Shown here piece by piece: positions 4,287-62,485 of a stretch of DNA of 64,000 bases. Each line of letters starts with the position of its first letter. Positions within the stretch are counted from its first letter, which is position 1. The notes beneath the pieces were generated by a model. It had not been told where the DNA came from and ran no database searches. It worked only from the letters and a program-made list of their open reading frames with translations. The DNA is from a virus, in UHGV virus genome UHGV-0218015. One strand, given 5' to 3'. The translations under genes and the position numbers were made by a program.

Positions 4287-7200
4287 TTAATCGCGAATGA
4301 TTACCGCCTGCACTTTATTGTCGGTGTCGATAAACGACATTACGCGCTCCTTGTTAAGATAAGGAGGTATCGGTAACGCAGCGTAATCTGCCAGGTTGTT
4401 ATTAAATTCAGTTGCCACTAACGCATTAAGCGTTTCGGGGTCTGAGCTGACACCGGACAATTCCATGACGCGTACTCGATTTAATGAGGAATAGTTGCTA
4501 ACATAGTCCAACAACGTACCGTAGACTTTGTTCGCAGTTGCGCTGTCTGCTGTAGAGCGGATGTTGGCACGAACCTCATCCTCATAAAGTCCCCCTAAAC
4601 CGTAGTAAATAGGGGTATACGGATCATTAACGATAGGTTCGATATTGAACCCGGTTAAACGGTCGGCTAATGGGATTTTCTGCGTAGTTCCCCCTGCCGC
4701 CGTACAGCTTACGTATTTATCTGTCGCGGATAAAAACACCACGATAGTATACACAGTGCCAGCTAAAGTCAGCGATGCATTAAACGTTATTGCGTTGTTT
4801 GCACCACGGGTGTGGGTAAACGTTACGTCAGGTCGTAATGAACTCCACGGTGCAGGCGTAACACGCTTCGTTGGTGTGAAACCTACCACTACCGATTTCC
4901 CGCTACCGAAGTTCAAACCGAACCCTGCGTAACAATATTCACCGTTACTGTCAGTTAAACGATAACCGCGAGTGATAAGTAATGACAACCGCATAAACTC
5001 GCCGTCGGTGTTCTTCCAACAACCTAAAACAGTTTCTAACACTGTTCCGGTTTTTGCGTTGCTTTCTGTTTCCCAACTTACCCGCATTCCTGCGTTTTTG
5101 AAAGTCGGGAATAAGTTGTGAATAAACCCGTGAACGTTGTCACTTACCCCTTTCGCATCGAAAATCCACTTTGATGCGATCTGGTCGTATTTCACCCCGT
5201 CTAAGGCTTTATACTGTCCACGAACAACATAACGCCAATCTGCTTCACCACGCACTACTGCCTGGAGTCCAGAAGCCCAGCAAGGTGCACCTACTGTTAA
5301 ATCACTTAACCCCAATACTGCACGCGAAGCAGAACGTTGAATGTGTGCGTTGTCATTAGCGATGTGGTCTTTCAGCTCGTGGAATTCGCCTAATCGTGTC
5401 ACGTTACGCAATTCCACTACGTCCACTTCGGAAAGCTCATTGACAACGAGTCTTCCCACGCGCGTCATGGTATCCGTTTCAGCCTGATTGTAGCTGTCGT
5501 GGATAACATACTTCGCTTTGTTGTCAACAATATCAACAAAAATTCCTGCGTAGATCAACGTTTTCGGATTCGGGAAACGTTCAGTGACGTTAACCGACAT
5601 TAACGGTACGTCATACGTCTCACCACCAACAAAGTACGTTGAAGCGGGGAGCATAGCCAGAATTTTGTCTTTAACCGTAACGTTAATTAAGTCGTCACCA
5701 GACTTGCCGAAACGAATAATGTCAACGCGAGCACCCGAGTCAACGCCACCGACAGCATTTTCCAATTTTTCAATCTGGGAAGTCTGCGCCATTACCACAC
5801 TCCCATCGAGTGCTAAAGTCGCATCATCCACATCCAGACCAAATTTAATCAGACCACGTTTCGCTGTGGTTGCGTTCCCAGTACCAAAAGCGGTAAACGG
5901 GTGTTGGTGAACTTTAGGCGAGTATTTATCTAACTCCGCACGTTGTGCTGTAGAAATCGGTAAATTGACATCGGGTGTATTCGCAACGTTACCTAAACCA
6001 AAGGTAATTTTGTCGATAGTGACCGAGCTGGTAAGTTGCATGTCGTTAATGTACGATTTAACCGCAACTAATTTACCGGTGAACTCCGCATCTAGTTTTT
6101 CAATCAGTGCTGGCGTTGCTGCAAGGTTTTCAGCGGTACCAAACTCATCGGTCAACTGCCAAGCTGCCAGGGCTGTTGTATCTGTCGCGGTAGGGAGAAT
6201 AAAAGTCGCTACGAACGGCGATGCTTTTATCCCGCTACCGGTAAGCTCTACCGTGGTTGTAGATGTACCGTAGAATAATCCCGTACCGCCCGCGGTATTG
6301 CCTGGCAGATACGGAGCCACGGTAGTGGGGTCTAAGAGTTTCTTACCACGCCACTGTAACCCACGATCATCAGGATACAATATAAGTTGGTTAGTACCTG
6401 CTTGAAACGTTACAGGGTTATTCCCCGCATTAACCTCGGTTGAACCTTGTCCAATAAACTTAATGGATTTCGGGTCAACGACAAACTGGGCACCTAAACG
6501 GGTCCCGTCAACGACGTCGGGCGCTTTCTTAATGGTAACCGTGTTACCTTTATTCCCCGAGCTAATAGTGACATTGTCAGCAACATTACTGATCAATGAT
6601 TTAAAGTGGTGGCTATTCTCCAATGCTTCTAGTGCAGCGTCCATGTTAGTGAAGTTAACACGTGCACTGTATGTCTTGCCGTTTATGGTAATAACGACAT
6701 CAAACACGTTCCCTGTGCGTTTCAGTTGAAAACGCAGCGTAAAATCCCCATCCGGTATTGCTGGATTAGGAGCTTGGGAAAGATACTGAACTTCAGGTGT
6801 GGGATTCGAAAAACCGTTCAGTTCCAACTTAACGCCGACTTTACCCGCAGAAATTTCACCTGTAAGCTGGATAAATTTTCCAGAGTTAGTACCAGGTTTC
6901 TGATAGAAACGTAGGCTAACCGTACCGACAGCTTCATTACCAGACGCTGTTTTACGTCCGGTAACAATAAAGTCAATATCTTGCAGGTTAGCAGGTACCG
7001 CATTAAAAGAAGTGGCGAATCCACTCTTCGTTCCTGTGTAACGAAGCGCACCGTGATACCTGTGACCATTACTAACGTAGCTTTCGCTAAAACGAGGACT
7101 CACGTATTTCGACATTGACACCGGGTCAACTTCCGTCGTGAACGAAGTAAAACCGGGCAGCGTTCCAATAGTTCCGTTAGCCGTTTTCGTAGCTGACGTG

Positions 7201-8609
7201 CGCAATAGTTTCTTTTGTGCTGTCAGCGTCGCTTGTGTTGGATACTTAGCATTAACATAATCCGTTAACTGCGGCTTCGTTTTTCCGTAAGCTAATGCTG
7301 CATCCGACGCAATACCGTTCAACTCTAACGCACGGATCGGACCCCACGTATCTGTGTGTGGGTTGTCCTTACGTGTAACGTGTTCGTGCGCAGGCGCATT
7401 ACGATACAGCTGCTCAACCAACTGATGATACTTAACTATTAACTGGTAAACATCGTTATCAACGTCAGGCTCCGGCGCACCGGGTAAAGAACGAATTTGA
7501 ACATTATCGTTTTCAGCCGCATACCAGTTCAGGTTAATGTTCGTTTTAGACTTCAACCATTTGGCTACATCCGTTTTCGAATACCCTGCCGAGAACTCAT
7601 CAGGTGGCGTATCGACGTTGAACGTATAATCCATGGTCTGTTTATTTGTTTTTACTACGATTACGTAAACGCCGTTTCCGGGTTGTCGGGTTACACTAAA
7701 ATCGATATCGTTTTTTAACTCATCGTCAGTTAAACCGTTGATTAAAGTATAATCGTAGTTTGATGAACCGCTTCCAATAGCGACAGTTAAGACCAGTGAG
7801 ATTTTGCGCTGTTTTAGCTGCAACCGTAGAATGCTTGCACCACCGTTGGCATAACAGAGCATCCAATCGATCTGCTCGTTCGGATTCAACTTTGTCATGT
7901 CCGGCAGAATAGCAGGAATTCTGTGTTTCACCGACAGGGAATAGTTGTTAAAGGTTGTCGCTTTATAACTCAGGCTATAACGGTGGCGAGCTGTGTTGTA
8001 GGTGAAACCGCCTTTATTATCGTACGCAGCATACTGCTCGGAAGTGATAACCTTGCTATTAGCACGATATTCCAAATCCAGTGTATTGCGTGCGATTGGG
8101 TTAAGACGACTCACGACTTCCCCTAACGAATCGCCTACCCCAGCAATGGCCTGCATTAGCTCCAGTTCACCTTTCCAATTCTCCCAATCGAACTGGATAT
8201 CGACCGGTGGAAAGTAAACGTCTCCGATGACGGTGTCCCACTGACACGCGGAGGGGTATTTACCTTTATTAAGCTCGCGCTCTGCGGTAATCTGCTCTTG
8301 GGTTGCTTCACCACAACCAACGGCATGGTAATCTACAGTAAAGTTCGATTTGTATTTGTCATTAACAATCCAAATCATCCCGTGAATGAGATAGGCTGTG
8401 CGCAACATACCAGTCTCGTACGGGTGTGTAATAACGTAATCGTCGCCTAAGGTCAGTATTTTGCCGCCGCTCTTGACCACCAGGGATGTGGTGAAAAAAG
8501 GGGCGTGGGCAGGTACCAACATTCGGTATTTCGTACCAATGACGGCGACCGCTTCACCGGTTATTTTATTCCCCGGTTTTTTGAAGTGTGGGTCTAAGAC
8601 GACAGCCAT
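4287..8609 (-). CDS. large tail fibre / tailspike-like virion protein (1440 aa)
   Basis: 1440-aa ORF with ATG start at 8609, 10 nt upstream of the next gene; N-terminal module shared with the 1394-aa protein; long beta-rich, Gly/Thr/Asn-rich sequence. Confidence 0.6.
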   Translation of the reverse strand: MAVVLDPHFKKPGNKITGEAVAVIGTKYRMLVPAHAPFFTTSLVVKSGGKILTLGDDYVITHPYETGMLRTAYLIHGMIWIVNDKYKSNFTVDYHAVGCGEATQEQITAERELNKGKYPSACQWDTVIGDVYFPPVDIQFDWENWKGELELMQAIAGVGDSLGEVVSRLNPIARNTLDLEYRANSKVITSEQYAAYDNKGGFTYNTARHRYSLSYKATTFNNYSLSVKHRIPAILPDMTKLNPNEQIDWMLCYANGGASILRLQLKQRKISLVLTVAIGSGSSNYDYTLINGLTDDELKNDIDFSVTRQPGNGVYVIVVKTNKQTMDYTFNVDTPPDEFSAGYSKTDVAKWLKSKTNINLNWYAAENDNVQIRSLPGAPEPDVDNDVYQLIVKYHQLVEQLYRNAPAHEHVTRKDNPHTDTWGPIRALELNGIASDAALAYGKTKPQLTDYVNAKYPTQATLTAQKKLLRTSATKTANGTIGTLPGFTSFTTEVDPVSMSKYVSPRFSESYVSNGHRYHGALRYTGTKSGFATSFNAVPANLQDIDFIVTGRKTASGNEAVGTVSLRFYQKPGTNSGKFIQLTGEISAGKVGVKLELNGFSNPTPEVQYLSQAPNPAIPDGDFTLRFQLKRTGNVFDVVITINGKTYSARVNFTNMDAALEALENSHHFKSLISNVADNVTISSGNKGNTVTIKKAPDVVDGTRLGAQFVVDPKSIKFIGQGSTEVNAGNNPVTFQAGTNQLILYPDDRGLQWRGKKLLDPTTVAPYLPGNTAGGTGLFYGTSTTTVELTGSGIKASPFVATFILPTATDTTALAAWQLTDEFGTAENLAATPALIEKLDAEFTGKLVAVKSYINDMQLTSSVTIDKITFGLGNVANTPDVNLPISTAQRAELDKYSPKVHQHPFTAFGTGNATTAKRGLIKFGLDVDDATLALDGSVVMAQTSQIEKLENAVGGVDSGARVDIIRFGKSGDDLINVTVKDKILAMLPASTYFVGGETYDVPLMSVNVTERFPNPKTLIYAGIFVDIVDNKAKYVIHDSYNQAETDTMTRVGRLVVNELSEVDVVELRNVTRLGEFHELKDHIANDNAHIQRSASRAVLGLSDLTVGAPCWASGLQAVVRGEADWRYVVRGQYKALDGVKYDQIASKWIFDAKGVSDNVHGFIHNLFPTFKNAGMRVSWETESNAKTGTVLETVLGCWKNTDGEFMRLSLLITRGYRLTDSNGEYCYAGFGLNFGSGKSVVVGFTPTKRVTPAPWSSLRPDVTFTHTRGANNAITFNASLTLAGTVYTIVVFLSATDKYVSCTAAGGTTQKIPLADRLTGFNIEPIVNDPYTPIYYGLGGLYEDEVRANIRSTADSATANKVYGTLLDYVSNYSSLNRVRVMELSGVSSDPETLNALVATEFNNNLADYAALPIPPYLNKERVMSFIDTDNKVQAVIIRD

Positions 8610-34755: not shown

Positions 34756-35280
34756 GTGGATATTTTAATTCAGCTTCGTAAGAAAACAACCATTGCCACG
34801 CCGATAGAGTTAGAGGAGAAAATCTCTGGCGCGGTTGCACGCAAGCTCTGTGGTGCTCACGGCTTTAGCAGTCATCAGGAACAGGTCGTTACTGCCGCTA
34901 CATTACACAACTTACGGCACGCAGTTCATTACTGTTTAGTTGACAACGTCACCATCACTCTTGATGATAACGTAAAAGTCGACCAACTGCGACGCGAAAT
35001 TGTCCACAAGATCGAGGCTTACAATAGACGTTTCGATCGTGTGTGCGCGCGTTTAACTGGTGACGAGGCTCTACGAAAACGTTTGAAACTTGAAATTGAG
35101 TATGCTGCGCAGCGTTACGGGATTGGCGGCACCGAACCGTGTCTGGCTGAACAAGAAATCGATTTAGCAATCGAGGTTTATACCATTCTCTGCTGCGCCA
35201 TCCTAAAAGAGACCAACCACGAAATTACAAAAGCATTGTTAGACACCGCAGACAGACTCACCCCAATTTTAGGACAATAA
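34756..35280 (+). CDS. hypothetical protein (174 aa)
   Basis: Complete ORF with GTG start and AAAGGAG RBS. Confidence 0.5.
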   Translation: MDILIQLRKKTTIATPIELEEKISGAVARKLCGAHGFSSHQEQVVTAATLHNLRHAVHYCLVDNVTITLDDNVKVDQLRREIVHKIEAYNRRFDRVCARLTGDEALRKRLKLEIEYAAQRYGIGGTEPCLAEQEIDLAIEVYTILCCAILKETNHEITKALLDTADRLTPILGQ

Positions 35281-35281
35281 A

Positions 35282-35770
35282 ATGAACTTAAATCATATCT
35301 TCGACATTCGTAACTGCGATATCGTACATGAATTTCTCAATAACGAAACACGTGTACGAAAAGAAATTGAAGAAAAGTTGACTCCGTTGGTTGCAGACAC
35401 TCCTTGGATGGCGGCTTACGCCGCGTCCTACTTTTCTTCTCGGTGCCTAACGCAATACATATTTATCCTATTTGACTTCTCCGATCTATCAAGCAAGCGC
35501 ATAACAGAAACAGACGTTCGGCAACGCCTACGCCATGGTCGCGACGAGTTCTTAAAGAAAGTTTCTGATGCGTACCACATGGAGCGATTCCCTACTCCAC
35601 TAGTCCCCTACACAGAACCGGAATGGGAAAAATTTTATACCCGGATTTGGGTTGAAGATTCTCACTTGGACGAAATCATGGAAATCATCGAACGTAATGA
35701 AAACCTACTTTCCTTACAGCTATGGGAGTGGCTAAAAGCTAATTATCCTGATTACGTCAAAATCGACTAA
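35282..35770 (+). CDS. hypothetical protein (162 aa)
   Basis: Complete ORF followed by a terminator. Confidence 0.5.
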   Translation: MNLNHIFDIRNCDIVHEFLNNETRVRKEIEEKLTPLVADTPWMAAYAASYFSSRCLTQYIFILFDFSDLSSKRITETDVRQRLRHGRDEFLKKVSDAYHMERFPTPLVPYTEPEWEKFYTRIWVEDSHLDEIMEIIERNENLLSLQLWEWLKANYPDYVKID

Positions 35771-35774
35771 TAGA

Positions 35775-35808
35775 CACCCTAGCTTCGGCTAGGGTAACTT
35801 TATTTTTA
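35775..35808 (+). terminator. rho-independent terminator
   Basis: Hairpin ACCCTAGCTTCGGCTAGGGT followed by AACTTTATTTTT. Confidence 0.65.
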
Positions 35809-35829
35809 ACCATTTTAGGAGAATATACC

Positions 35830-36756
35830 ATGTATTTGTACAAAAGTAAAAAAGTAAAAGGTATTAAAGACTGCCTTAGACAAATGGGGAGTCAGCATCT
35901 AGAAAATGTCATGGAAGAAAATCAAACAAAAGAAAATCCCGTCTCGAAATGGATAAAAAAGAATCGTAAGCATTTAACTAATGCCTTTATACCCTACGAC
36001 GCTGAGTTAGGTCTCAAAGATCCCCGTTCCCTTCACGCTCAAACATTGGCAATTGGATGGCTATACGGGGGTGCTTCCTTAATATCCAATCGAGCACTTA
36101 GAGAACTTGTTTTCGAGACTGAGATACCCACTAAATTCCCTGAAGAGTGGTTAGACTTTATACCTACTTGGACTGTAGCAATCGATGTAGGTAAAGAAGA
36201 TGAGACTTTCTTTCTCGGTTATCGAAAAAATAGGAATAGAAGGTTTATTATAATTGCTACAAATACTGATTACGGGTTAACAGAAGGCGTTACCACAATC
36301 GCCACCTGCTCGTTAGAGATATGTAGTGTTGGAAACGGGCTTGTTGAAATCGATTATACAACTGACGTACAGACCGAACAAGAGAAGACGTTATGGCTAT
36401 CACTGGCCAAAACCGCCATATCGTTGATATTTCTCTGTACGCTAATCCCGCCCAATCTCAGAGGGTCTTTCAATGACATTAAGTTCAAAGAAATCAAAAA
36501 GAATGGTAGTATAAGTCACGAAATCAAACCTCGTGAACGTGACGTTAAAATAGACATCACGCCAGGACAAGTGAAATATCTAAAGGGATTTAACACCGAC
36601 TTGAAAACCATGGAAGGTATCAAACACGCCAAGGCCGCACATATTCGTCGCGCGCACTGGCGCAGATATTGGGTCGGTCCAAGAGATGGGGAAAGGAAGA
36701 GAAAACTTTACTGGATTCCGCCTACATTTGTCCGTGGCTACGTACCCCACAATTAA
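35830..36756 (+). CDS. hypothetical protein (308 aa), paralog A with C-terminal HIRRAHWRR motif
   Basis: C-terminus AKAAHIRRAHWRRYWVGP...WIPPTFVRGY and internal LAIGWLYGGASLIS are shared with the next gene. Confidence 0.5.
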   Translation: MYLYKSKKVKGIKDCLRQMGSQHLENVMEENQTKENPVSKWIKKNRKHLTNAFIPYDAELGLKDPRSLHAQTLAIGWLYGGASLISNRALRELVFETEIPTKFPEEWLDFIPTWTVAIDVGKEDETFFLGYRKNRNRRFIIIATNTDYGLTEGVTTIATCSLEICSVGNGLVEIDYTTDVQTEQEKTLWLSLAKTAISLIFLCTLIPPNLRGSFNDIKFKEIKKNGSISHEIKPRERDVKIDITPGQVKYLKGFNTDLKTMEGIKHAKAAHIRRAHWRRYWVGPRDGERKRKLYWIPPTFVRGYVPHN

Positions 36757-36781
36757 GCTAAAAGTGTTTAGGAGCATTAAA

Positions 36782-37681
36782 ATGATAGCGAATAATAGAC
36801 TTTACGGGAAAGCGCTAAGACGCATGAGCGAACAGATAGAAAAAGCGCACCAAACAATTCACGGATTAGACCAGTGCCGTTTTATTCGGTTCATTAACGA
36901 GCATAAACGACAAATACCCGTAACGTTTATGCCAGTTAAAGATCCGACCTATCGAGAGTATGGCGTTACGGAACAGATTCCCAGACTGATTAAACAGTCC
37001 CTGGGCCTAGGATGGCAATACGCTGCTGTTGAAATCATCTCAGACGAAGAACTGATGGCGCTCTTAGCAAAAACTGAGAGACTAAAAAATATCCCGTACT
37101 TCTGGATAGAAACCATCCCTTCATTTACTTTCTCGGTTACCGTAAATCTCGACGAAAGCCCAATCACGTTATTTATCGGAAGACGTCTTTACGAAGGCGA
37201 AGAAGTTCTCTTCGTAATGTCATGCGAAGAACGTGAAGAATCGGTATACATGGAGTTTGAGATTTACAAAATCGATAAAAGCGAAGATGATTTCGTCGTG
37301 CTAAAGCCGCTTCTTACTTCGGTTAAGGAGAATCAACGACTACTCGACGCCGTCTACATCGGGCTATATCTTTCGTCACGAATTAAACGTACTGAACGTG
37401 AAAAGAAAGAATTTCGTGGAAGAACGATTCGTTATGTTCCTGATACAGAGATTCGCCCACGTAGTGAAGCAGTCGTTTTAGACGTAAGTCCGGTACAATG
37501 GGAAGATATAGAGCAGCAACGCAAGGAAGGACACGAAGTTTGTTTGGCAATTTATTGCGCAGCACATATCCGCCGTGCTCATTGGAAGCGTGTATGGTGT
37601 GGTAAAATGTCAGAAATGCGCTGGCGCGAATGGCGATGGATAGCGCCAAGCTACATCTCTGGATTTTATCGTGGGAAATAA
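36782..37681 (+). CDS. hypothetical protein (about 299 aa), paralog B with C-terminal HIRRAHWKR motif
   Basis: C-terminus AAHIRRAHWKRVWCG...WIAPSYISGFY; start taken at the first ATG after the upstream stop (track ORF begins at 36686, overlapping the previous gene). Confidence 0.5.
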   Translation: MIANNRLYGKALRRMSEQIEKAHQTIHGLDQCRFIRFINEHKRQIPVTFMPVKDPTYREYGVTEQIPRLIKQSLGLGWQYAAVEIISDEELMALLAKTERLKNIPYFWIETIPSFTFSVTVNLDESPITLFIGRRLYEGEEVLFVMSCEEREESVYMEFEIYKIDKSEDDFVVLKPLLTSVKENQRLLDAVYIGLYLSSRIKRTEREKKEFRGRTIRYVPDTEIRPRSEAVVLDVSPVQWEDIEQQRKEGHEVCLAIYCAAHIRRAHWKRVWCGKMSEMRWREWRWIAPSYISGFYRGK

Positions 37682-37687
37682 ATAGTT

Positions 37688-37730
37688 TACCCCTAGACCA
37701 CACGGTCTAGGGGTAGCTTTACTTTTTTTA
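37688..37730. terminator. bidirectional terminator
   Basis: Hairpin CCCCTAGACCACACGGTCTAGGGG followed by a long T-run; between convergent genes. Confidence 0.7.
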
Positions 37731-38483
37731 TTTTTTGTTTGCCTTAAGCGCTTTTAAGCGTTCGGCAGTAACGTTCAGGCATTCGATTAATTCGTTAACC
37801 TGTTTCATGAACAAACCAAACAGCTCCACCCAATCGGAAGCAAAATCTAACATCATCGTCAGTTCTTTTGCTACATTCGGATGAATGTTTTGTTCGGACA
37901 AGATTTCTGACGTAGTGCGAATAGACTCGATTGACTTGTCGATATTCGTCCGTAGACGTTTTGTGATTTCAACGTTCAGTGCCTTAGCGCGATTGAACGC
38001 AACATCAATTTCGGACGCGCTGTGATACGTCTTCTCAATTGGTCGCTGGTCAATAACGTTGTTAGTGTACGATTTCGCTAACAAGTTAACCAGATCTTTC
38101 GGGTTAACGTTACGTAAAGGTATATTAACATTTTTGTAACGGAAACCAATCGGTAATGACAGTACACCCACATCATGTGTAAGGGCCGAAAGTTGTTTAT
38201 CGACCGGCAACAGAATACCCGTATAAATGTTTTGCAGTGAACTCCATACGGATTCTAAGCGGTTCAAATGATCCATCACGTAGGTATTAAACCCAGGTGG
38301 AACGATAACCAACATTCCCGCAAAGTGAAGGAATTTTTCTTGTTGCATCCACTTGGAAACGTCCGACATCTCGTCATAAGTGGTTAATGCAATCTCTTGT
38401 TGAGGGCCACTAAAGCCTTTCGGTAAGATTGCAGACGCTTTAGCGGCGAAGCTAGATAACGCTGCAAGTGGATTTACATTCAT
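37728..38483 (-). CDS. hypothetical protein (251 aa)
   Basis: Isolated minus-strand ORF bounded by a terminator and an intergenic region. Confidence 0.5.
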   Translation of the reverse strand: MNVNPLAALSSFAAKASAILPKGFSGPQQEIALTTYDEMSDVSKWMQQEKFLHFAGMLVIVPPGFNTYVMDHLNRLESVWSSLQNIYTGILLPVDKQLSALTHDVGVLSLPIGFRYKNVNIPLRNVNPKDLVNLLAKSYTNNVIDQRPIEKTYHSASEIDVAFNRAKALNVEITKRLRTNIDKSIESIRTTSEILSEQNIHPNVAKELTMMLDFASDWVELFGLFMKQVNELIECLNVTAERLKALKANKK

Positions 38484-55318: not shown

Positions 55319-58300
55319 TTACGCCCGTTTACGACCAACGTCGAGTTGGCGGGCAGGTTGTTCAACCGCGATGTTACGTGATGCTGACCCCGGGGCAGAA
55401 GCCGCCGAACTAGCTGGGGAGGACTGCATAGCCTGTGGTCGCTGACGAAGAATTGTAACAATCTCTCTCAGATAACCCGCAGACTCTTTTGCAACCGCCA
55501 GCTGCTGTACGCTAATCGGATCACCGCTGTTCACCGTTGGCGCAGTCTGTGCATCAGACGTTACCGTTGGCGCAGGACGAGCTGTTTTCTCCATTTGCTG
55601 TCTAGCACCTTCTTTTACTTTGGCAACTTCCTCTTCGCCCAGGCCATCAGCACGCGCATTTTGACCCACCGTTTCAACAACGACAGACGCATCACTTGGC
55701 GTGACGTCACCGCCAGGACTCGGCACAGCTGGACCACCCCCAGTTGCAGCTTTAATATCTTCAGCGCCCATCGCTCCTTTGTCTGCTAAAGCGGAGTCAC
55801 GATTCGCCTCGTTCGCGGCTGGCAGGTTATCTGCCGGACCAGAAATAGACGGATCGTTAGCTGCGCCAGCAGCAATTGCAGGAGACGATGGAACTGGCGA
55901 TAACCCTTTTGTCATGTTTTTCGCAGACGCAGGATTTGCCGCAATCTCGTTAGTTCCAACCGCGCCCATACGGCGGTTCAGTTCCTCGACAACCTCACCG
56001 ATCGTACGCATCCTAACGCGTTTCTTCCCGTTCATGATATAGAAAACACCTTCGTTGCCGTTAAGAACAGCAGGTGTAATATACTTCACTTTGTCGGGCG
56101 ACCCGTTAGGATTGGTTTTCCAGGCTTTAAGGAACTCAGCACCACCACCTGGACCTAAGAAGTGGTATAGGTACGCTACTGCCGGAGGTGGGGCAATTCC
56201 ACCCAGATCCTTTTGTGCGGTCTTGATGTTGTCTCTAATGAAGTTAACACCTAAGATTGCGTTAGCCCACGGGTCGAACTGGTCGGTTTGTGGGATACCG
56301 TATCTTCGGGCGTACTGCTTCATAACCCCGTTCCAAGTACCATTGGTAAATTGGAACAGTCCAGCGGCAGACATCTTATTACTTCTCGGTCTACCAGAGG
56401 ATGCGCCAGGGTAGTTGCCATACTGTAAGCCAGATTCTGCTTGTGCCATTGCAATCGCAACGGATGGCGGAACACCCACCATGTTTGCCGCGTCAATAAT
56501 CAATGACTTAATGGCTTCGGTATTTGACTGCATCGGTTTGCCAAGCATTTCCCTTGGGTATTTAGTCACTAACGATTTGTAATCACCGTCTTGTAACTCA
56601 CCGAGGGTGATACCAGATTGTCCAGTGGAATACTTCGCATAGTTCCCTATACCCATATCGCCAACAACTTGTGATAAGTCACCTGGCGTACCGTAGTACT
56701 GACCACCTTTTGGTAAGTATCCGTCGTTTGAAGCTTCGCCGTAGCTGTTAATTCCCTTATAACGCTCTTTGCTATCTTCATTCGTCTGATGGACACTGGA
56801 GTTTGTCGCTGGTGATTTCCATGTCATACGCTTAGGCGTGCTCGGTGTTTCTTTGAGCATATTCCTTACAGCCAGATCAGGTTCTTTAGACAACTCTTTC
56901 AACGTTGCTAATTCTTCCTTCACCGAACCCGCGTCAGTATTCGCATCGCCTCCTAACGGGTTAAATGCGATTTCCCACACAGACTGACGGATACCCCCTT
57001 TCATGTTGTAAGCACCACGCATCATCAGTGCCAGCTCATAGAGGAAACCCCCCGTGAGTTTCAAATCCAACGGATCGGCATGAGGTACGTAACGTTTTAC
57101 ACCATAAACGTAGGTCATGAATACTGGTAAGAATCGATTATAGAACCAGTTCTTGTAACGCTCCTCTTTTGGACCGCCAATTGCATCAGGCGCAATCGCA
57201 GAAATTGCTTTCTTCCAATCACCCTTATAAATGCAATTTTTGATATCCGTGTCTTTCAACACTTCTTTCTCAAGCAACCTAAAGAGGGTACGTGTTGTCT
57301 CATTAACAGATTTCACACCGTAAGATTTCCAACGGACGGATTCCATCGCGTCCAAATCTTTCTTCTCAGGTAATACTCTCCAGTCAACTTGAATTTGAAC
57401 CTGTTCAGTACCGTCTTCCCAACCCTCAGCTTTAGCAACGGTTTCGTTACGTTCGGTATCGTTCTTCGCGAGTACCTGCGAAGATTCTGCCACAGAAGCA
57501 ACCTTATGTCCTTCAGGCACAGCACCGGCTCTAGTTGTTTTCTTACGCTTATCATCGCGGCGCATGTTGATCGAACGGAAAACACGATCTTGTGCCTCAA
57601 CAACTTCTTCGCCTGACAAAAATTCTGCCGGTGTGAAGGTCACGAAATCCCACGCTTTAGAGAACCAACCTTGGTTAACTTTACGGGGGTCTGTCAGCGA
57701 TTTAAAAGCAGGTGCATCTTTTGTCATCTTCATTTTGTTAAAGATGGTAAGCATGTCTGCTTTTGATACCTTCGACGGATTACCGACGTCAGCTAACGCG
57801 ATATCGTTATCCATTGAACGTAACGCTGTAATCCAACGTAAATAGATCGGCACAAAACGTTGTAGCATAAACGCACTAAACGCCAGCATTTCGCCTTTGT
57901 CTTCTACGTTAGTACCAAACCCTTCGGCCAGTTTCTTCACATCGTCACCGGACAAACCACGCAGCTGCGCTTGACCGTTCTCTGTATAAGAGATATACGG
58001 TTTCAAGTTGTCTTCTAAATAACGTGCTTTTGCACCGTCGTCGGAAGACCATTCATCGTGGTCTCTAAAACCGTACTGTGCCAATCGCATGTTATCCAGA
58101 TACTGGGCATTTACACGATCTTTAGTTTTATAATAAAACCACGTTAACCCTGCGCCAGCGGCTACCAAACCGATAATCGGCCAGCCAACCGCAGTTACCA
58201 CTGCAGATGCAGCTGTCGCGACAGCACTAACCGCAGGGACAGCCAAACGGGTCACGGCAAACTTACCAACGTTCCACAACGCTTTGCCTGCAAATCCAAC

Positions 58301-61300
58301 CGGCTTGAAGATTCCCCATTTTGCAAGTTTACCTAAGATTGAACCCACTGTGCCTAAAATACTCACGATTGGTCCTACCAACGGCAATCCTTTAAGGAAA
58401 TCCATTACCCCACGTTTACCACCTTTCTTCTCAGCCTCTTTCTTAGCCTTTTCCTCTTCCTTAGAACGCCGACGGCGTCGGAAGAACTGGAAGTAATCGC
58501 GTTTTTCATCACTGGCAGGCGGCTTATTGCGTTGGCCGAACTTACTGAACATAGTTCTTAACAAACCTTCCGAAGCACCTGCTTTTTCCGCAGAATCACG
58601 CATGGTGTTAAACCATGACATTTCCTGAAGATTAACCATTCGGTTCAGGCGTTCCAGTAAAGCTGACCCAACGCTACGGGCTTTCTGTTTCCCTTTATTA
58701 ATCACACGTCCAGCGCTATCCGTTACGGTGTCTAAGTCTTCTTTTGCCGCATCGATGATACGTGTTTTAGACACCTTGCCTCTTGCGTAGATGTGCTGAC
58801 GATAAAACTCAGCAACATCGTCATCGCGTCCTGCTAAACGACTCTCCATTCGATAACGTGTGCCGATATCGTAACGTGGGTCTCGGAAAGTATCGACCAT
58901 ATCGCTTGCACGGCCACGGAAACGATCAAACCAACCACGTGCGGCACCGCCCCAACGAGAAAGACGACCACCTACCGCATTGCGATAACGGGACATTCTG
59001 TCACGCATCCGACCGCGCCAATCCCGGAACCCCTGAAAATGTTCACGGAACCCTTCACGTATGTCCTTAGCACGTTGGAATAATCCTTTAACTGAGCTGG
59101 CTCCCGTATTCCGTTCCATCTGTTCTGTCCAGGTATCATCTTCTGGTTCACCTGGCAATCTCCGGTTAAGGAGTTTGTAGATACGGATTAAGATGTGGTT
59201 AGTTTTACGGCCGTTCGACCATGAGAACACACTAAACCCACCACCAGAACCCCCTTCCTTACGGTTCTGCCACCAACGTGTCAGAGGGTTATCAGAAGCC
59301 AACTCTTTGAGCTTCTCAAACCCGCGTTTTGCATTGTTCCACAAACGCGCTGGCATTCCCGTTACACGGGAAATCATGCTTTGTAAACGGGTTTTCTCTG
59401 CGCCCTCTGGAACCTCATTTAGCCACTCGCGTGCTTTCTCGAACAACGAAGCCGCTTTAGGTGAAATGAAGCCCAGAAGTTTCTTCGGTAAAGTCACAGC
59501 TTTGTTTACCGCCGTTCCTGCTTTCCCAGAAATGTACTGGAAAAGCGCTTGAACTTTACCACCTTTGTAGAAGCGCAGTTTACCTGCGGCAGCCAAATCA
59601 GCAGCAGCTAAGATTAAATTACCCGCTTCATCGACAATATCGCGTCCCAGTTTAATATCGTCGAGGGTTTTAAGTTGAATCAGCTTCTCAGTTTTCGGGT
59701 CAGCCTGGTAATATTCCCCAGCTTCTAAACGACTTCCTTGTAATACGACGTTGCCACGTTCATCGTAAATATCACGAACACCTAAAACGCCTTTACCGAA
59801 AGCTACAGCAGAATTCCAACCTGTCGATAGAGTACCTGTTACTAACCCTTTCAGTCGGCTAAATACACCGGGTCCTTCGGAGGGGCCGCCTGAGAATTTC
59901 CCACGGATAAAACCACCTAAAGCCTGCAGACGATCTTTCCCACGTAGGAACAGATTCTTACCAAACCGCCCTACACCTGAACCGGTATCCCAAAGCACCC
60001 CAGCCCAACGGCGTAACAAGCCTGTCTCGCCTAGCACAATACGTTTGCGTTTACGACGACGTTTACGACCCGAGTCACTCGAACTTTCAGATTCGTCACC
60101 GTCATCACGACTACCGCCTAAACTGGCTAGGAGAATACCTTCCTCATCCATGTTCTTAACGTGTTTGAGGATATCTTGCACTGTGCTAGATTCGGGCTGT
60201 TTACGTACAGCATCAATCAAACGGTCGAATTGGTGCTCCAACCCGGCGTTCGTGTCTGGACGACTGCTTAATAGTTCAACAAAGTTAGTGGATTTCTCTC
60301 CATAAAGTACCGCAGCGAGTTGGCGTGCGCTTAAACCGCGACCACGACCTCCTTTTCCACCGCCACGTACATTGGACAGTTCTTTGTCTTCAAAGCTCGG
60401 CTCTGCGCCTGCACCCATCCGACGCAAGTAATCACCCAGCGCAGAACCGTTTTGCAATTTACGCTGAATCTCTTGCTCACGGGTTAACGAACGTCCAGAG
60501 CGGGTCTTACCCATCGACAGGTCATTAAATAACGTATAGGGATCGTTAATGTCCTTATCAACCTCGAAAATGTCATTCTTCGCATCGTATTTAAAAATAC
60601 CGGAATCACGAAGTGCATTCTCGCCGTAAATCACAGACGCAGCATCAACAGTGTCCTGACGTGCGCGAATCGTTGACTGGATAGCGGCGATTTTGTTTGA
60701 AATCGCGTTGCTCAGTTCATGGTGCCCACCAACCAGTTCCGCAGAACGGGCTTCTAAAACACCCTGAATCGCTTCCACAGCGTTTGCGTTCATGTACCGA
60801 TACATGTGCATCGGGTCTTTCAATAAAGACCCTACGTCGAACGCTTTCCCTTCTGAGGCACGAGATTCGATGTAGTCCGCTAATGCTTGACGTGTTTTAT
60901 TATCGAGCGTTTTATCTTTATCGATAAAGTCAACAGTGTCGTTGATGTAAGTCTGTAAACGTTTACGCTGATCGTCATTAGCGACCGCTTTACGAACACG
61001 ATTACCAATAACTTTACGATCCACCATACCGCGTGTGGTCAGGTCATAAACCTGATCGTGGTGTTCCCCATATCCACGACGAATAGATTTGTTAATCTCG
61101 GACAGTAACGTCGGAATAACTTCAGTGATGCTGAGGTAAGCTTTACGATCGAATTTCGCCGCCGCAGAAAGAGATTCCGCAGAGCGATCGTCTAATGCTA
61201 ACGTTTCGCGACGTAGCGGGTTAACCAATCCCAAATCGTGCATTAGGCGAAACAGATCAGCTAACGGGCCGCTTGTTTCTCCTGCTATTGCTGAGTTAGA

Positions 61301-62485
61301 GATGGACGACAAATTTCCAAAACCATACTTCGCCAACTGAAGGCGTTTCATGACTTCTGGATTTTTCTCTAACTCGCCACGAGTCCAGTTTTGTAGACGT
61401 TCGATCTGTGGTTGTAAGAGTCGTTTTGCTAACCAACCACCTGCAAAACCTGCCGCTTTATTACGCGAGTTTGTATTACGACGGTCAGGAGACAACGATG
61501 AGCTGTCCGACATGTCAAAGTCGTCTTCCTGGGCCATCCCTAGAACTTGTTCTAGAATCCCACGACCATCGCTAAAGACGTTCGAGATTTTCTTCTTCGC
61601 GTTCTCACGAATCTGGCTAATGAAATTGTCTGCGTAATGTAAGGGGTTCATCCACTCCGCAGCTTTACGTTTTACATTAGCCCAACGAATTTCAGAAAAC
61701 TCTTCCTTCGCGTAGTCTGGCAGTGCTGTATTCTTAACGATAGCTTCTAATGCCGGTGTATTGCGTGCAAACTCGTCTTGTTTGAGTTTCGCAATATCCT
61801 GCAAAGCAAACAATGTCCGATATTGCAGCTCTAACTGCTTACGCTGAACATTCAACAACACGCCACGACTTAAGCTAGTCGTTAAGTTGACGTCTTTTGC
61901 AATACCGATTACTGTCTGGAACAGTGCGTCGGACTTCATGTCCTTAATCGTGTCACGCAAGCGGTCTTCAACCATCCCTTCTTGCGTTTCGCGTTGTTGG
62001 TCCGCTGTTTGCGGTGCACCTGAGAACACGCTATCCAGCTCACGATCCATCAACGCTTGTTTAGGATCGTAATTCCCGTAGTCGACTTGATCGTTACGTG
62101 CCCACTTGTCGATTTTCCGTGTTACGGATTCCGGTAAATACCGTTTCAGTGTTGGGCCTAACTGTCTCGCTTGCATCTTAACGACGCGAGACGTCTTTTC
62201 AATCTCGTCTTTCGTATGGGCCAGAATGTCTTGACCTGCAGCTTTAACGTTTTGATAGCCTTCGTAGGCTTCTGCCGCAGGTTTAGGCATCCCTTTTAAA
62301 ATAACCTGATCACGTTTGTTTTCGGGCCAGATAGTCGACAACGCCGACTTACGGGCAGCACGAAATGTGTCCATGACCGGGTTACGCGATTGGTCTTGTT
62401 GACGAGGGGGCTCATCAAAATCGTCCCAGTCGTCCATGTTATCAAGATCGATTTCATCGAAATCATCTTTACCTTTTTTAGCCAT
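55319..62485 (-). CDS. giant virion protein (2388 aa) with transmembrane block and lytic transglycosylase domain
   Basis: Acidic N-terminus; hydrophobic helices around aa 1290-1385 (at about nt 58330-58615); SLT family motifs VAIAMAQAESGLQYG...AAGLFQFTNGTW...AYLYHFLGPGG near the C-terminus (at about nt 56000-56400). Size and domain placement resemble phiKZ gp181 as I recall it. Confidence 0.8.
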   Translation of the reverse strand: MAKKGKDDFDEIDLDNMDDWDDFDEPPRQQDQSRNPVMDTFRAARKSALSTIWPENKRDQVILKGMPKPAAEAYEGYQNVKAAGQDILAHTKDEIEKTSRVVKMQARQLGPTLKRYLPESVTRKIDKWARNDQVDYGNYDPKQALMDRELDSVFSGAPQTADQQRETQEGMVEDRLRDTIKDMKSDALFQTVIGIAKDVNLTTSLSRGVLLNVQRKQLELQYRTLFALQDIAKLKQDEFARNTPALEAIVKNTALPDYAKEEFSEIRWANVKRKAAEWMNPLHYADNFISQIRENAKKKISNVFSDGRGILEQVLGMAQEDDFDMSDSSSLSPDRRNTNSRNKAAGFAGGWLAKRLLQPQIERLQNWTRGELEKNPEVMKRLQLAKYGFGNLSSISNSAIAGETSGPLADLFRLMHDLGLVNPLRRETLALDDRSAESLSAAAKFDRKAYLSITEVIPTLLSEINKSIRRGYGEHHDQVYDLTTRGMVDRKVIGNRVRKAVANDDQRKRLQTYINDTVDFIDKDKTLDNKTRQALADYIESRASEGKAFDVGSLLKDPMHMYRYMNANAVEAIQGVLEARSAELVGGHHELSNAISNKIAAIQSTIRARQDTVDAASVIYGENALRDSGIFKYDAKNDIFEVDKDINDPYTLFNDLSMGKTRSGRSLTREQEIQRKLQNGSALGDYLRRMGAGAEPSFEDKELSNVRGGGKGGRGRGLSARQLAAVLYGEKSTNFVELLSSRPDTNAGLEHQFDRLIDAVRKQPESSTVQDILKHVKNMDEEGILLASLGGSRDDGDESESSSDSGRKRRRKRKRIVLGETGLLRRWAGVLWDTGSGVGRFGKNLFLRGKDRLQALGGFIRGKFSGGPSEGPGVFSRLKGLVTGTLSTGWNSAVAFGKGVLGVRDIYDERGNVVLQGSRLEAGEYYQADPKTEKLIQLKTLDDIKLGRDIVDEAGNLILAAADLAAAGKLRFYKGGKVQALFQYISGKAGTAVNKAVTLPKKLLGFISPKAASLFEKAREWLNEVPEGAEKTRLQSMISRVTGMPARLWNNAKRGFEKLKELASDNPLTRWWQNRKEGGSGGGFSVFSWSNGRKTNHILIRIYKLLNRRLPGEPEDDTWTEQMERNTGASSVKGLFQRAKDIREGFREHFQGFRDWRGRMRDRMSRYRNAVGGRLSRWGGAARGWFDRFRGRASDMVDTFRDPRYDIGTRYRMESRLAGRDDDVAEFYRQHIYARGKVSKTRIIDAAKEDLDTVTDSAGRVINKGKQKARSVGSALLERLNRMVNLQEMSWFNTMRDSAEKAGASEGLLRTMFSKFGQRNKPPASDEKRDYFQFFRRRRRSKEEEKAKKEAEKKGGKRGVMDFLKGLPLVGPIVSILGTVGSILGKLAKWGIFKPVGFAGKALWNVGKFAVTRLAVPAVSAVATAASAVVTAVGWPIIGLVAAGAGLTWFYYKTKDRVNAQYLDNMRLAQYGFRDHDEWSSDDGAKARYLEDNLKPYISYTENGQAQLRGLSGDDVKKLAEGFGTNVEDKGEMLAFSAFMLQRFVPIYLRWITALRSMDNDIALADVGNPSKVSKADMLTIFNKMKMTKDAPAFKSLTDPRKVNQGWFSKAWDFVTFTPAEFLSGEEVVEAQDRVFRSINMRRDDKRKKTTRAGAVPEGHKVASVAESSQVLAKNDTERNETVAKAEGWEDGTEQVQIQVDWRVLPEKKDLDAMESVRWKSYGVKSVNETTRTLFRLLEKEVLKDTDIKNCIYKGDWKKAISAIAPDAIGGPKEERYKNWFYNRFLPVFMTYVYGVKRYVPHADPLDLKLTGGFLYELALMMRGAYNMKGGIRQSVWEIAFNPLGGDANTDAGSVKEELATLKELSKEPDLAVRNMLKETPSTPKRMTWKSPATNSSVHQTNEDSKERYKGINSYGEASNDGYLPKGGQYYGTPGDLSQVVGDMGIGNYAKYSTGQSGITLGELQDGDYKSLVTKYPREMLGKPMQSNTEAIKSLIIDAANMVGVPPSVAIAMAQAESGLQYGNYPGASSGRPRSNKMSAAGLFQFTNGTWNGVMKQYARRYGIPQTDQFDPWANAILGVNFIRDNIKTAQKDLGGIAPPPAVAYLYHFLGPGGGAEFLKAWKTNPNGSPDKVKYITPAVLNGNEGVFYIMNGKKRVRMRTIGEVVEELNRRMGAVGTNEIAANPASAKNMTKGLSPVPSSPAIAAGAANDPSISGPADNLPAANEANRDSALADKGAMGAEDIKAATGGGPAVPSPGGDVTPSDASVVVETVGQNARADGLGEEEVAKVKEGARQQMEKTARPAPTVTSDAQTAPTVNSGDPISVQQLAVAKESAGYLREIVTILRQRPQAMQSSPASSAASAPGSASRNIAVEQPARQLDVGRKRA

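What the first reader, a model, noticed from the sequence alone, without database searches (positions are those of the whole stretch)
35830..37681. Adjacent paralog pair ending in a conserved HIRRAHW(R/K)R...W.(P)P...GY tail
Two ~300-aa proteins share a near-identical basic/aromatic C-terminal segment (AHIRRAHWRRYW / AHIRRAHWKRVW) and an internal LG.GW.Y motif, but otherwise differ. A recent duplication followed by divergence is implied; the His/Arg/Trp-rich tail suggests nucleic-acid or metal binding.
Basis: seen in the sequence. Interest (0 to 1): 0.4.

Follow-up and report, generated by a model that had tools for sequence, protein, structure and literature searches.

The report
Tandem AcrVA2/FinQ-like genes in jumbo phage
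The two adjacent genes are real but ancient paralogs in a jumbo phage, and both belong to the already described AcrVA2/FinQ family, whose conserved His-x-Arg-x-x-His-Trp tail is the part that, in the studied anti-CRISPR AcrVA2, is needed to destroy the mRNA of a specific target protein.

Summary
There are two + strand genes, P1 (35830-36756, 308 aa) and P2 (most likely 36782-37681, 299 aa). They are homologous over about 280 aa (24% identity, E=6e-19), not only in the tail.

The interpretation needs correcting.
- The duplication is old. Each paralog has much closer orthologs (63-99%) in six related phage contigs that carry the same pair.
- The family is already characterised. Close homologs of both carry Pfam PF26125 "AcrVA2-like".
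- An HMM built only from distant members scores P1 at 118 bits and P2 at 72 bits (shuffles reach at most 8.6).
- A 140-sequence profile matches the AcrVA2 crystal-structure sequence end to end (E=2.9e-48).
- The flagged tail holds the equivalents of AcrVA2 H286/R288/H291, which are essential for Cas12a mRNA down-regulation and invariant in 140/140 members. The LGxGWxY motif holds the W79 equivalent.

The genome is a relative of the nucleus-forming Asesino/SPN3US jumbo phages, and its host is probably Enterobacter. Those relatives carry a single copy at the same site.

New details: the tandem pair is rare, and the P1 alleles are shuffled by recombination in the N-terminal and middle region while the tail stays fixed. 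Targets are unknown and are unlikely to be Cas12a. This is a new member of a known kind, of modest interest.

The parts
35776..35795 (+). Terminator-like hairpin (8-bp stem, then a T-rich tail) upstream of P1. It marks the 5' boundary of the two-gene unit.
   Evidence: sequence read
35817..35821 (+). Shine-Dalgarno AGGAG of P1
   Evidence: read directly
35830..36756 (+). P1: AcrVA2/FinQ-like protein, 308 aa, 35.6 kDa, pI 9.5. Positional and closest sequence counterpart of the single-copy gene in Asesino (gp235) and SPN3US-type phages.
36046..36066 (+). P1 residues 73-79, LAIGWLY. W77 is the equivalent of AcrVA2 W79 (W in 137/140 family members).
36637..36738 (+). P1 residues 270-303, the C-terminal effector motif AHIRRAHWRRYWVGPRDGERKRKLYWIPPTFVRG. 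H271/R273/H276 are the equivalents of AcrVA2 H286/R288/H291.
36770..36774 (+). Shine-Dalgarno AGGAG of P2, 7 nt before the ATG at 36782
   Evidence: read directly
36782..37681 (+). P2: second, more divergent AcrVA2/FinQ-like protein, 299 aa, 35.6 kDa, pI 8.5. The alternative ATG at 36686 is rejected.
37001..37021 (+). P2 residues 74-80, LGLGWQY. W78 is the equivalent of AcrVA2 W79. D88 (nt 37043-37045) is the equivalent of AcrVA2 D89.
37562..37663 (+). P2 residues 261-294, the C-terminal effector motif AHIRRAHWKRVWCGKMSEMRWREWRWIAPSYISG. H262/R264/H267 are the equivalents of AcrVA2 H286/R288/H291.
37687..37716 (.). Bidirectional terminator-like hairpin (12-13-bp stem) between P2 and the convergent 251-aa gene. 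It marks the 3' boundary of the unit.

Best explanation
P1 and P2 are two anciently diverged members of the AcrVA2/FinQ protein family (Pfam PF26125, 'AcrVA2-like'). They are encoded as a two-gene unit bracketed by terminators in a jumbo phage related to the nucleus-forming phages Asesino and SPN3US. The host is probably Enterobacter.

By analogy with AcrVA2, each protein most likely acts in the host cytoplasm. It would recognise a specific target polypeptide through its variable N-terminal and middle part, probably while that polypeptide is still being translated. The invariant C-terminal H-x-R-x-x-H-W motif would then trigger loss of that target's mRNA, so the target is never made.

The two paralogs differ most in the presumed recognition part and keep the effector motif, so they most likely silence two different targets. 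These are more likely host defence or competitor-element proteins than Cas12a. Within the lineage, alleles of the recognition part are exchanged by recombination while the tail stays fixed.

Shown here:
- paralogy
- family membership by sequence profile (P1 and P2) and by fold (P1 only)
- conservation of the mutationally defined residues
- synteny
- rarity of the tandem arrangement
- the mosaic allele pattern

Inferred, not shown:
- the mRNA-silencing activity
- its coupling to translation
- cytoplasmic localisation
- the identity of the targets
For: Paralogy:
- BLASTP gives 24% identity over about 280 columns, E=6e-19.
- Both proteins hit phrog_6160.

Family membership:
- Homologs 89% identical to P1 and 99% identical to P2, and both genes of the pair in L003-L007, carry PF26125 'AcrVA2-like' at E<=1e-5.
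- phmmer of P1 hits the AcrVA2 chain 7ci1_A at the tail (E=4.7e-4).
- A profile of 140 family members found from the window lineage matches AcrVA2 residues 5-319 at E=2.9e-48.
- An HMM built only from 134 distant members scores P1 at 117.8 bits (residues 58-304) and P2 at 72.0 bits (residues 64-294). The best of 1000 shuffles scores 8.6 bits.

Fold:
- The AF2 model of P1 has pLDDT 85.9 and pTM 0.81.

Functional residues:
- AcrVA2 W79 maps to W77 (P1) and W78 (P2).
- D89 maps to N87 and D88.
- H286/R288/H291 map to H271/R273/H276 and H262/R264/H267. These three are invariant in 140/140 members.
- In AcrVA2, the H286A, R288A and H291A mutants lose mRNA down-regulation but still bind Cas12a. Homologs occur on plasmids and megaphages, mostly without Cas12a (bioRxiv 10.1101/2022.11.29.518452).

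Variable recognition part with a fixed tail:
- P1 and P2 share 10-20% identity in residues 1-60 and 13-17% in residues 121-180, against 50% in residues 271-300.
- L004 and L088 are near-identical phages (flanks 96-100% aa). Their P1 proteins are 71% identical overall, 40-43% in residues 121-180 and 100% in residues 241-310.
- That region has dS 1.24 against 0.04-0.22 in the flanks, which indicates allele exchange.

Context:
- The locus is syntenic with the single-copy Asesino gp235 and the SPN3US-type MGA_211.
- Asesino forms a phage nucleus (PMC11724907).
- Terminator-like hairpins bracket the pair.
Against: - No functional data exist for any jumbo-phage member of the family. The activity is extrapolated from one studied protein (AcrVA2) that shares about 11-17% identity with P1.
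- The mechanism of AcrVA2 itself is incomplete: how the mRNA is destroyed is unknown, and the main source is a preprint.
- FinQ, the other studied homolog, was described as causing premature transcript termination, so coupling to translation may not be general.
- P1 has N instead of D at the AcrVA2 D89 position (N occurs in 15/140 members).
- Foldseek TM is only 0.42, which suggests different domain orientations.
- P2 was not modelled.
- The Pfam model itself could not be run on the window proteins, because it is absent from the local Pfam copy.
- The gene sits at the same position in several jumbo-phage genera, among replication and recombination genes. That would also fit a housekeeping role in the phage's own gene expression.
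- dN/dS is below 1 everywhere, so positive selection on the variable part is not demonstrated.
Confidence: 0.6

Rival explanations
1. They are true anti-CRISPRs against Cas12a (type V-A), like AcrVA2 itself.
For: - They belong to the same family and fold as AcrVA2.
- The effector motif is intact.
- Huge-phage proteins clustering with AcrVA2 have been proposed as possible Acrs (PMC7162821).
Against: - Most family members occur in bacteria without Cas12a (bioRxiv 10.1101/2022.11.29.518452).
- Hosts of the related phages are Erwinia, Salmonella, E. coli and Enterobacter. From general knowledge, not tested here, Cas12a is not typical of these genera.
- Of the AcrVA2 residues that contact the Cas12a peptide in the crystal (E98/D129/D195), only E98 is alignable and kept.
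- The region equivalent to the target-binding part is the least conserved.
- A phage nucleus already shields DNA from DNA-targeting CRISPR (PMC7162821 text; PMC11448039 abstract).
Confidence: 0.06
2. They act like FinQ, as inhibitors directed against rival mobile elements (co-resident plasmids, prophages or co-infecting phages). They would truncate the rivals' transcripts, not necessarily through nascent-peptide recognition.
For: - FinQ is a family member that lowers F tra mRNA and was described as terminating tra transcripts at multiple sites.
- One Erwinia jumbo-phage homolog is already annotated 'putative protein FinQ'.
- The family is abundant on plasmids: 260 plasmid records with a central member as query.
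- Recombinational allele shuffling fits conflict between elements.
Against: - No target is known.
- The FinQ mechanism was never resolved and may be the same as that of AcrVA2, so this rival differs from the main explanation mainly in the class of target.
- A lytic jumbo phage gains less obviously from inhibiting conjugation.
Confidence: 0.18
3. They have a housekeeping role in the phage's own programme. For example, they might clear a class of host or early phage mRNAs, or regulate phage gene expression in the cytoplasm of a nucleus-forming infection.
For: - A single copy sits at the same position, between the RNase H-like and UvsX-like genes, in Erskinevirus, Seoulvirus and this lineage, despite only 28-44% identity. 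Such stable position is unusual for counter-defence genes.
Against: - The family is spread over unrelated small phages and plasmids.
- Alleles are swapped between near-identical genomes.
- Copy number varies between one and two. These features suggest an accessory, conflict-driven gene.
- From reading of abstracts only (PMC11724907), no AcrVA2-like protein is mentioned as part of the 68-gene chimallivirus core. This was not checked gene by gene.
Confidence: 0.1
4. One reading: a recent duplicate pair of generic nucleic-acid-binding or metal-binding proteins.
For: - The tail is strongly basic (pI 10.6-11.6) and rich in His, Arg and Trp.
- The activity of the motif is unknown, so direct RNA, ribosome or metal binding is not excluded.
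Against: - The duplication is not recent.
- The family has a described, target-specific function.
Confidence: 0.06

Closest known systems
AcrVA2 (Moraxella bovoculi prophage anti-CRISPR; PDB 7CI1/7CI2; Pfam PF26125 AcrVA2-like)
   Same: - Similar length (about 300-320 aa).
- The family profile aligns to it end to end at E=2.9e-48.
- The HIRR[AG]HW..W.G...W.P tail is the same, with the H/R/H triad and the W79 equivalent conserved.
- It is also carried by a phage.
   Different: - Only about 11-17% identity to P1 in the structural alignments.
- The N-terminal 57-75 residues lie outside the family profile match.
- The Cas12a-contact residues D129 and D195 have no equivalent.
- P1 has N at the D89 position.
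- The gene is in a lytic jumbo phage of Enterobacteriaceae, not a Moraxella prophage.
- It is present as a tandem pair, and there is no neighbouring AcrVA1-like partner.
- The target is unknown.
FinQ (fertility-inhibition protein of IncI1/F-like plasmids such as R820a)
   Same: - Reported to be an AcrVA2 homolog with the same conserved HxR motif and a similar C-terminal domain.
- It lowers the mRNA of specific target genes, the F tra operon.
- A jumbo Erwinia phage homolog is annotated 'putative protein FinQ'.
   Different: - No FinQ sequence was compared directly here.
- tblastn of P1 against 72,556 plasmid records found no plasmid-borne relative at E<=1e-3. The only hit was a misfiled jumbo-phage genome.
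- FinQ is plasmid-borne and acts against another plasmid.
Asesino gp235, the SPN3US-type MGA_211 and phrog_6160 (hypothetical proteins of jumbo phages)
   Same: - Same genomic position and orientation, upstream of the convergent 251-aa gene and the UvsX-like gene.
- 28% identity to P1, the same length, and the same motifs.
   Different: - These phages carry one copy and the window lineage carries two.
- No sequenced phage in the collection has a separate P2-like gene.

Membership tests
AcrVA2-like (Pfam PF26125) | Significant match to the family profile | tested here: met
   - Precomputed PF26125 hits (E<=1e-5) on homologs 89% identical to P1 and 99% identical to P2, and on both genes of the pair in L003-L007.
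- Independent HMM from 134 distant members: P1 117.8 bits, P2 72.0 bits, shuffles at most 8.6 bits.
- Caveat: the Pfam model itself is missing from the local Pfam copy, so it was not run on the window proteins.
AcrVA2-like (Pfam PF26125) | Homology to AcrVA2 over the whole protein, not only the tail | tested here: met
   - The 140-sequence profile seeded from the window lineage aligns to AcrVA2 chain residues 5-319 at E=2.9e-48.
- Family matches cover P1 residues 58-304 and P2 residues 64-294.
- The first 57-63 residues are lineage-specific.
AcrVA2-like (Pfam PF26125) | AcrVA2 three-dimensional fold | tested here: met
   - Met for P1 only. The AF2 model has pLDDT 85.9.
- Foldseek E=9.4e-9, but TM only 0.42.
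AcrVA2-like (Pfam PF26125) | Conserved C-terminal H-x-R-x-x-H motif (AcrVA2 H286/R288/H291), essential for activity | tested here: met
   P1 has H271/R273/H276 and P2 has H262/R264/H267. The three positions are invariant in 140/140 aligned members.
AcrVA2-like (Pfam PF26125) | Conserved N-terminal-domain residues W79 and D89 (moderate effect when mutated) | tested here: met
   - W77 in P1 and W78 in P2.
- D88 in P2. P1 has N87, a variant seen in 15/140 members.
AcrVA2-like (Pfam PF26125) | Activity: specific down-regulation of a target mRNA, dependent on translation of the target | not testable with these tools
   Needs expression, RNA-seq and pull-down experiments.
Anti-CRISPR type V-A (functional class) | Inhibits Cas12a and recognises the Cas12a N-terminal LSKT peptide | not testable with these tools
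   Indirect evidence argues against it.
- The crystal-contact residues D129 and D195 have no equivalent.
- The family occurs mostly without Cas12a.
- The host group is Enterobacteriaceae.
FinQ fertility inhibition | Direct sequence similarity to FinQ and inhibition of F-plasmid transfer | not tested
   - The relationship rests on the statement in bioRxiv 10.1101/2022.11.29.518452 and on one phage annotation.
- tblastn of P1 against plasmids did not reach plasmid homologs.

The most novel reading that the evidence does not exclude
In nucleus-forming jumbo phages, AcrVA2-like proteins may form a position-stable but allele-shuffled module that silences selected host genes at the translation stage. 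Phage transcription is enclosed in the nucleus, but all translation happens in the cytoplasm. A factor that reads nascent peptides could therefore remove induced host defence proteins, for example RNA-targeting or abortive-infection systems that the nucleus does not protect against. The tandem P1/P2 pair would be two specificities, with the middle domain acting as an exchangeable specificity cassette on a fixed effector tail. If so, the natural alleles (window type, L004 type, L088 type) would be a ready-made series for working out how target recognition is encoded in this family.
Probability: 0.2. Interest if true: 0.65.

Novelty: new member of a known kind. Interest (0 to 1): 0.33.

Why it matters
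AcrVA2 is so far the only bacterial example of a protein that reads a nascent polypeptide and destroys its mRNA. Its roughly 1,800 or more homologs mostly occur where Cas12a is absent, so their targets are an open question.

This locus adds three modest but useful points.
- The family is stably placed in several genera of nucleus-forming-type jumbo phages of Enterobacteriaceae. These genes are annotated only as hypothetical (PGAP, and PHROG 'unknown function').
- One lineage carries a conserved tandem pair of very divergent paralogs.
- Near-identical phages differ by swapped alleles in the N-terminal and middle part, while the effector tail stays 100% identical. This points to where specificity lies.

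None of this changes what the family is understood to be. It mainly corrects an annotation gap and offers a natural allele series for experiments.

Tried and rejected
- **Local profile libraries.** The local Pfam-A, NCBIfam and PADLOC scans gave nothing for either protein. The weak AAA_19 hit on P2 (E=0.09-0.3, below cutoff) is noise. The local Pfam copy lacks PF26125, so these negative results did not mean the family is uncharacterised.
- **P2 start at 36686.** Rejected. It overlaps P1, has no RBS, and homologs start at the equivalent of 36782.
- **First AF2 model.** The model from an 8-sequence alignment was poor (pLDDT 56.5). Its Foldseek hit to AcrVA2 (TM 0.28) was treated only as a hint, and the model was replaced by one from a 140-sequence alignment.
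- **Third copy.** None was found in the window by motif scan or by HMM on all ORFs of at least 120 aa.
- **Separate P2-like gene in sequenced phages.** None was found. P2 hits the same single locus as P1 in each phage.
- **Positive selection.** Not supported. dN/dS is at most 0.29 in every segment, and the high dS indicates recombination. dS between the window and L004 is saturated for P2, so no inference is possible there.
- **Direct link to plasmid FinQ by tblastn with P1.** Not reached.
- **Promoter scan.** Sigma-70-like hits are no more frequent than in shuffled sequence (6 against 6.6 expected). These phages also use their own RNA polymerases, so no promoter is claimed.
Full report
**1. 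What is in the sequence**

The interval holds two + strand genes.
- P1 runs from 35830 to 36756 (308 aa) and has an AGGAG ribosome-binding site at 35817-35821.
- For P2, the mechanical ORF list gives a start at 36686 that overlaps P1.
- The ATG at 36782 is preceded by AGGAG at 36770-36774. It gives a 299-aa protein that matches the gene models of its homologs (P0004 299 aa, P0005 294 aa). I use 36782-37681.
- Terminator-like hairpins lie just upstream of P1 (35776-35795) and just downstream of P2 (37687-37716, readable on both strands). The pair therefore looks like a unit of its own.
- The tail motif H[ILMV]R.[AGS]HW occurs only twice in all six frames of the 64-kb window, at these two genes.
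- An HMM scan of all ORFs of at least 120 aa also finds only these two family members.

**2. Is the similarity real?**

- BLASTP aligns about 280 columns at 24% identity, E=6e-19.
- Identity peaks in residues 61-120 (30-40%), the region holding the LxxGWxY motif, and in residues 271-300 (50%), the tail. It is lowest in residues 1-60 and 121-180 (10-20%).
- The tail is basic (pI 10.6-11.6) but is not low-complexity.

**3. Genome context**

- The window is a divergent relative of the jumbo phages Asesino, phiEaH2 and Stratton (Erwinia) and the SPN3US-type phages (Salmonella, E. coli). Identity is 73-75% at the nucleotide level, and only in the most conserved genes.
- Neighbouring genes encode large virion proteins, SbcC-like, RNase H-like and UvsX-like proteins, thymidylate synthase and a 2388-aa tail-fibre-like protein.
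- Asesino gp235 and the SPN3US-type MGA_211 are single-copy homologs at exactly the syntenic position. They lie upstream of the convergent 251-aa gene and the UvsX-like gene.
- Asesino is an experimentally shown nucleus-forming chimallivirus (PMC11724907). That the window phage also forms a nucleus is an inference from relatedness.
- tblastn against plasmids found a 222,441-bp circular 'plasmid' of Enterobacter ludwigii with the same gene order. This is evidently a related jumbo-phage genome, and it points to Enterobacter as a host genus.

**4. What the proteins are**

- PHROGs places both in phrog_6160, unknown function.
- The local Pfam, NCBIfam and PADLOC libraries gave nothing.
- The large protein database, however, carries a precomputed Pfam hit, PF26125, on all close homologs. 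The gene tables name it 'AcrVA2-like', and it is present on both genes of the pair in five related contigs.
- phmmer of P1 against PDB sequences hit only AcrVA2 (7ci1_A) at the tail, E=4.7e-4.
- An exhaustive HMMER search with a profile of the window lineage found 2,664 cluster representatives at E<=1e-3 and 659 at E<=1e-10. Most are 300-350 aa long and match over most of their length.
- A profile of 140 of these aligns to AcrVA2 residues 5-319 at E=2.9e-48.
- To avoid circularity, I built an HMM from the 134 distant members only. P1 scores 117.8 bits (residues 58-304) and P2 scores 72.0 bits (residues 64-294).
- With the jumbo-phage clade also removed, the scores are 88.1 and 45.8 bits. The best of 1000 shuffled sequences reaches 8.6 bits.

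**5. Structure**

- With 8 sequences the AF2 model was poor (pLDDT 56.5).
- With the 140-sequence alignment it is confident (pLDDT 85.9, pTM 0.81).
- Foldseek against the PDB finds a single significant match, AcrVA2 7ci2_A (E=9.4e-9, prob 1.00, TM 0.42).
- The fold is therefore specific to this family and resembles no known enzyme. This agrees with what the AcrVA2 authors reported.

**6. Functional residues**

Marino et al. (bioRxiv 10.1101/2022.11.29.518452) showed the following.
- AcrVA2 lowers Cas12a mRNA and protein by recognising the N-terminal polypeptide of Cas12a.
- The H286A, R288A and H291A mutants abolish this while keeping Cas12a binding.
- W79A and D89A have moderate effects.
- FinQ is a homolog.
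- About 1,800 homologs sit on plasmids and megaphages, mostly without Cas12a.

Adding the AcrVA2 sequence to the 140-member alignment gives this mapping.

| AcrVA2 residue | P1 | P2 | Family column |
|---|---|---|---|
| W79 | W77 | W78 | W in 137/140 |
| D89 | N87 | D88 | D in 99/140, N in 15/140 |
| H286 | H271 | H262 | invariant, 140/140 |
| R288 | R273 | R264 | invariant, 140/140 |
| H291 | H276 | H267 | invariant, 140/140 |

Of the residues that contact a Cas12a peptide in the crystal (E98, D129, D195), only E98 has an equivalent.

**7. Age of the duplication and evolution of the locus**

- The tandem pair (310-311 aa plus 294 aa) is conserved in L003-L007 and L088.
- In a neighbour-joining tree, P1 and its orthologs are sister to the single-copy genes of other jumbo phages, and the P2 clade branches outside.
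- P1 is 27-29% identical to those single-copy genes, and P2 is 21-24% identical.
- The duplication, or the acquisition of P2, is therefore old.
- Tandem pairs are uncommon elsewhere. Of 80 unrelated viral loci fetched with 4-kb flanks, only L084 has two copies. No sequenced phage has a separate P2-like gene.
- The locus is a mosaic. Between the window and L004, P1 is 89% identical, P2 is 63%, and core neighbours are 93-97%.
- Between L004 and L088, which are near-identical phages (flanks 96-100% aa), P2 is 98% identical but P1 only 71%. The P1 differences are concentrated in residues 61-210 (40-60%), and residues 241-310 are 100% identical.
- Nei-Gojobori estimates show this is allele exchange and not only fast protein evolution. 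For L004 against L088, dS is 1.24 in P1 codons 61-210 against 0.04-0.22 in the flanks, with dN/dS 0.29.
- Between the window and L004, P1 (dS 0.53) and the upstream g174 (dS 0.33) are less diverged than the background (dS 1.1-3.1).
- No segment has dN/dS above 1.

**8. Mechanism proposed**

By homology, each protein would bind a particular target polypeptide through its variable N-terminal and middle part. Through the invariant HxRxxHW tail it would cause loss of that target's mRNA. Two very different recognition parts imply two targets.

Cas12a is an unlikely target, for four reasons.
- The family's general distribution is mostly in bacteria without Cas12a.
- The hosts here are Enterobacteriaceae.
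- The AcrVA2 contact residues are lacking.
- A phage nucleus already protects against DNA-targeting CRISPR.

Host defence proteins or genes of competing elements (as for FinQ) are the most plausible targets. All of this is inference and nothing functional was tested.

**9. Comparison with what is known, and verdict**

- This is a member of an already described and curated family.
- Homologs in megaphages were noted before, and at least one jumbo-phage homolog is annotated FinQ-like.
- The new points are descriptive: the conserved tandem pair of deeply diverged paralogs, the stable position across jumbo-phage genera, and the recombinational swapping of the recognition part against a fixed tail.
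- The finding is real, and it is explained by a known family. Interest is modest.

Noticed in passing
window 92-4276 (-) and 4287-8609 (-): Two adjacent giant virion structural protein genes (1394 and 1440 aa) cross-hit the same PHROG families (8078, 7557, 7449, 2163). This is a second adjacent paralog pair in the window.
   Followed up: no
window 35282-35770 (+), the 162-aa gene just upstream of P1: The gene has no PHROG or PADLOC hit. It is only 42-45% identical to its counterparts in L004 and L006, and those two counterparts are only 60% identical to each other although the two contigs are otherwise 97-100% identical. It is a hypervariable gene next to the AcrVA2-like pair, and PGAP left it unannotated in L088.
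   Followed up: partly
window 34756-35280 (+), 174-aa gene, together with P1: Between the window and L004, this gene (dS 0.33) and P1 (dS 0.53) are much less diverged at synonymous sites than the surrounding genes (dS 1.1-3.1). This suggests a recently exchanged segment spanning g174 to P1.
   Followed up: partly
L088 = NZ_CP134650.1 (Enterobacter ludwigii 51A:C 'plasmid unnamed1', 222,441 bp, circular): This RefSeq 'plasmid' has the gene order of the window (exoribonuclease, RNase H, ..., AcrVA2-like pair, UvsX-like).
   Followed up: partly
L084 1226-2308 and 3305-4345 (+) (IMGVR_UViG_3300007802_000022, 30.9 kb): This is the only other viral locus, of 80 sampled, with two AcrVA2-like genes close together. 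The two genes are about 1 kb apart on the same strand, in an unrelated, smaller viral contig.
   Followed up: no
window 55319-62485 (-): A 2388-aa ORF matches a tail-fibre PHROG (3201) and has a transglycosylase-like segment at residues 1986-2181.
   Followed up: no
window 37728-38483 (-), 251-aa gene convergent with P2: The gene is highly conserved across the lineage (92.8-100%) and syntenic in Asesino and SPN3US-type phages. It belongs to phrog_4682, unknown function. There is also a weak, sub-threshold PADLOC hit to candidate system PDC-S15 (E=0.0028), which is probably noise.
   Followed up: no
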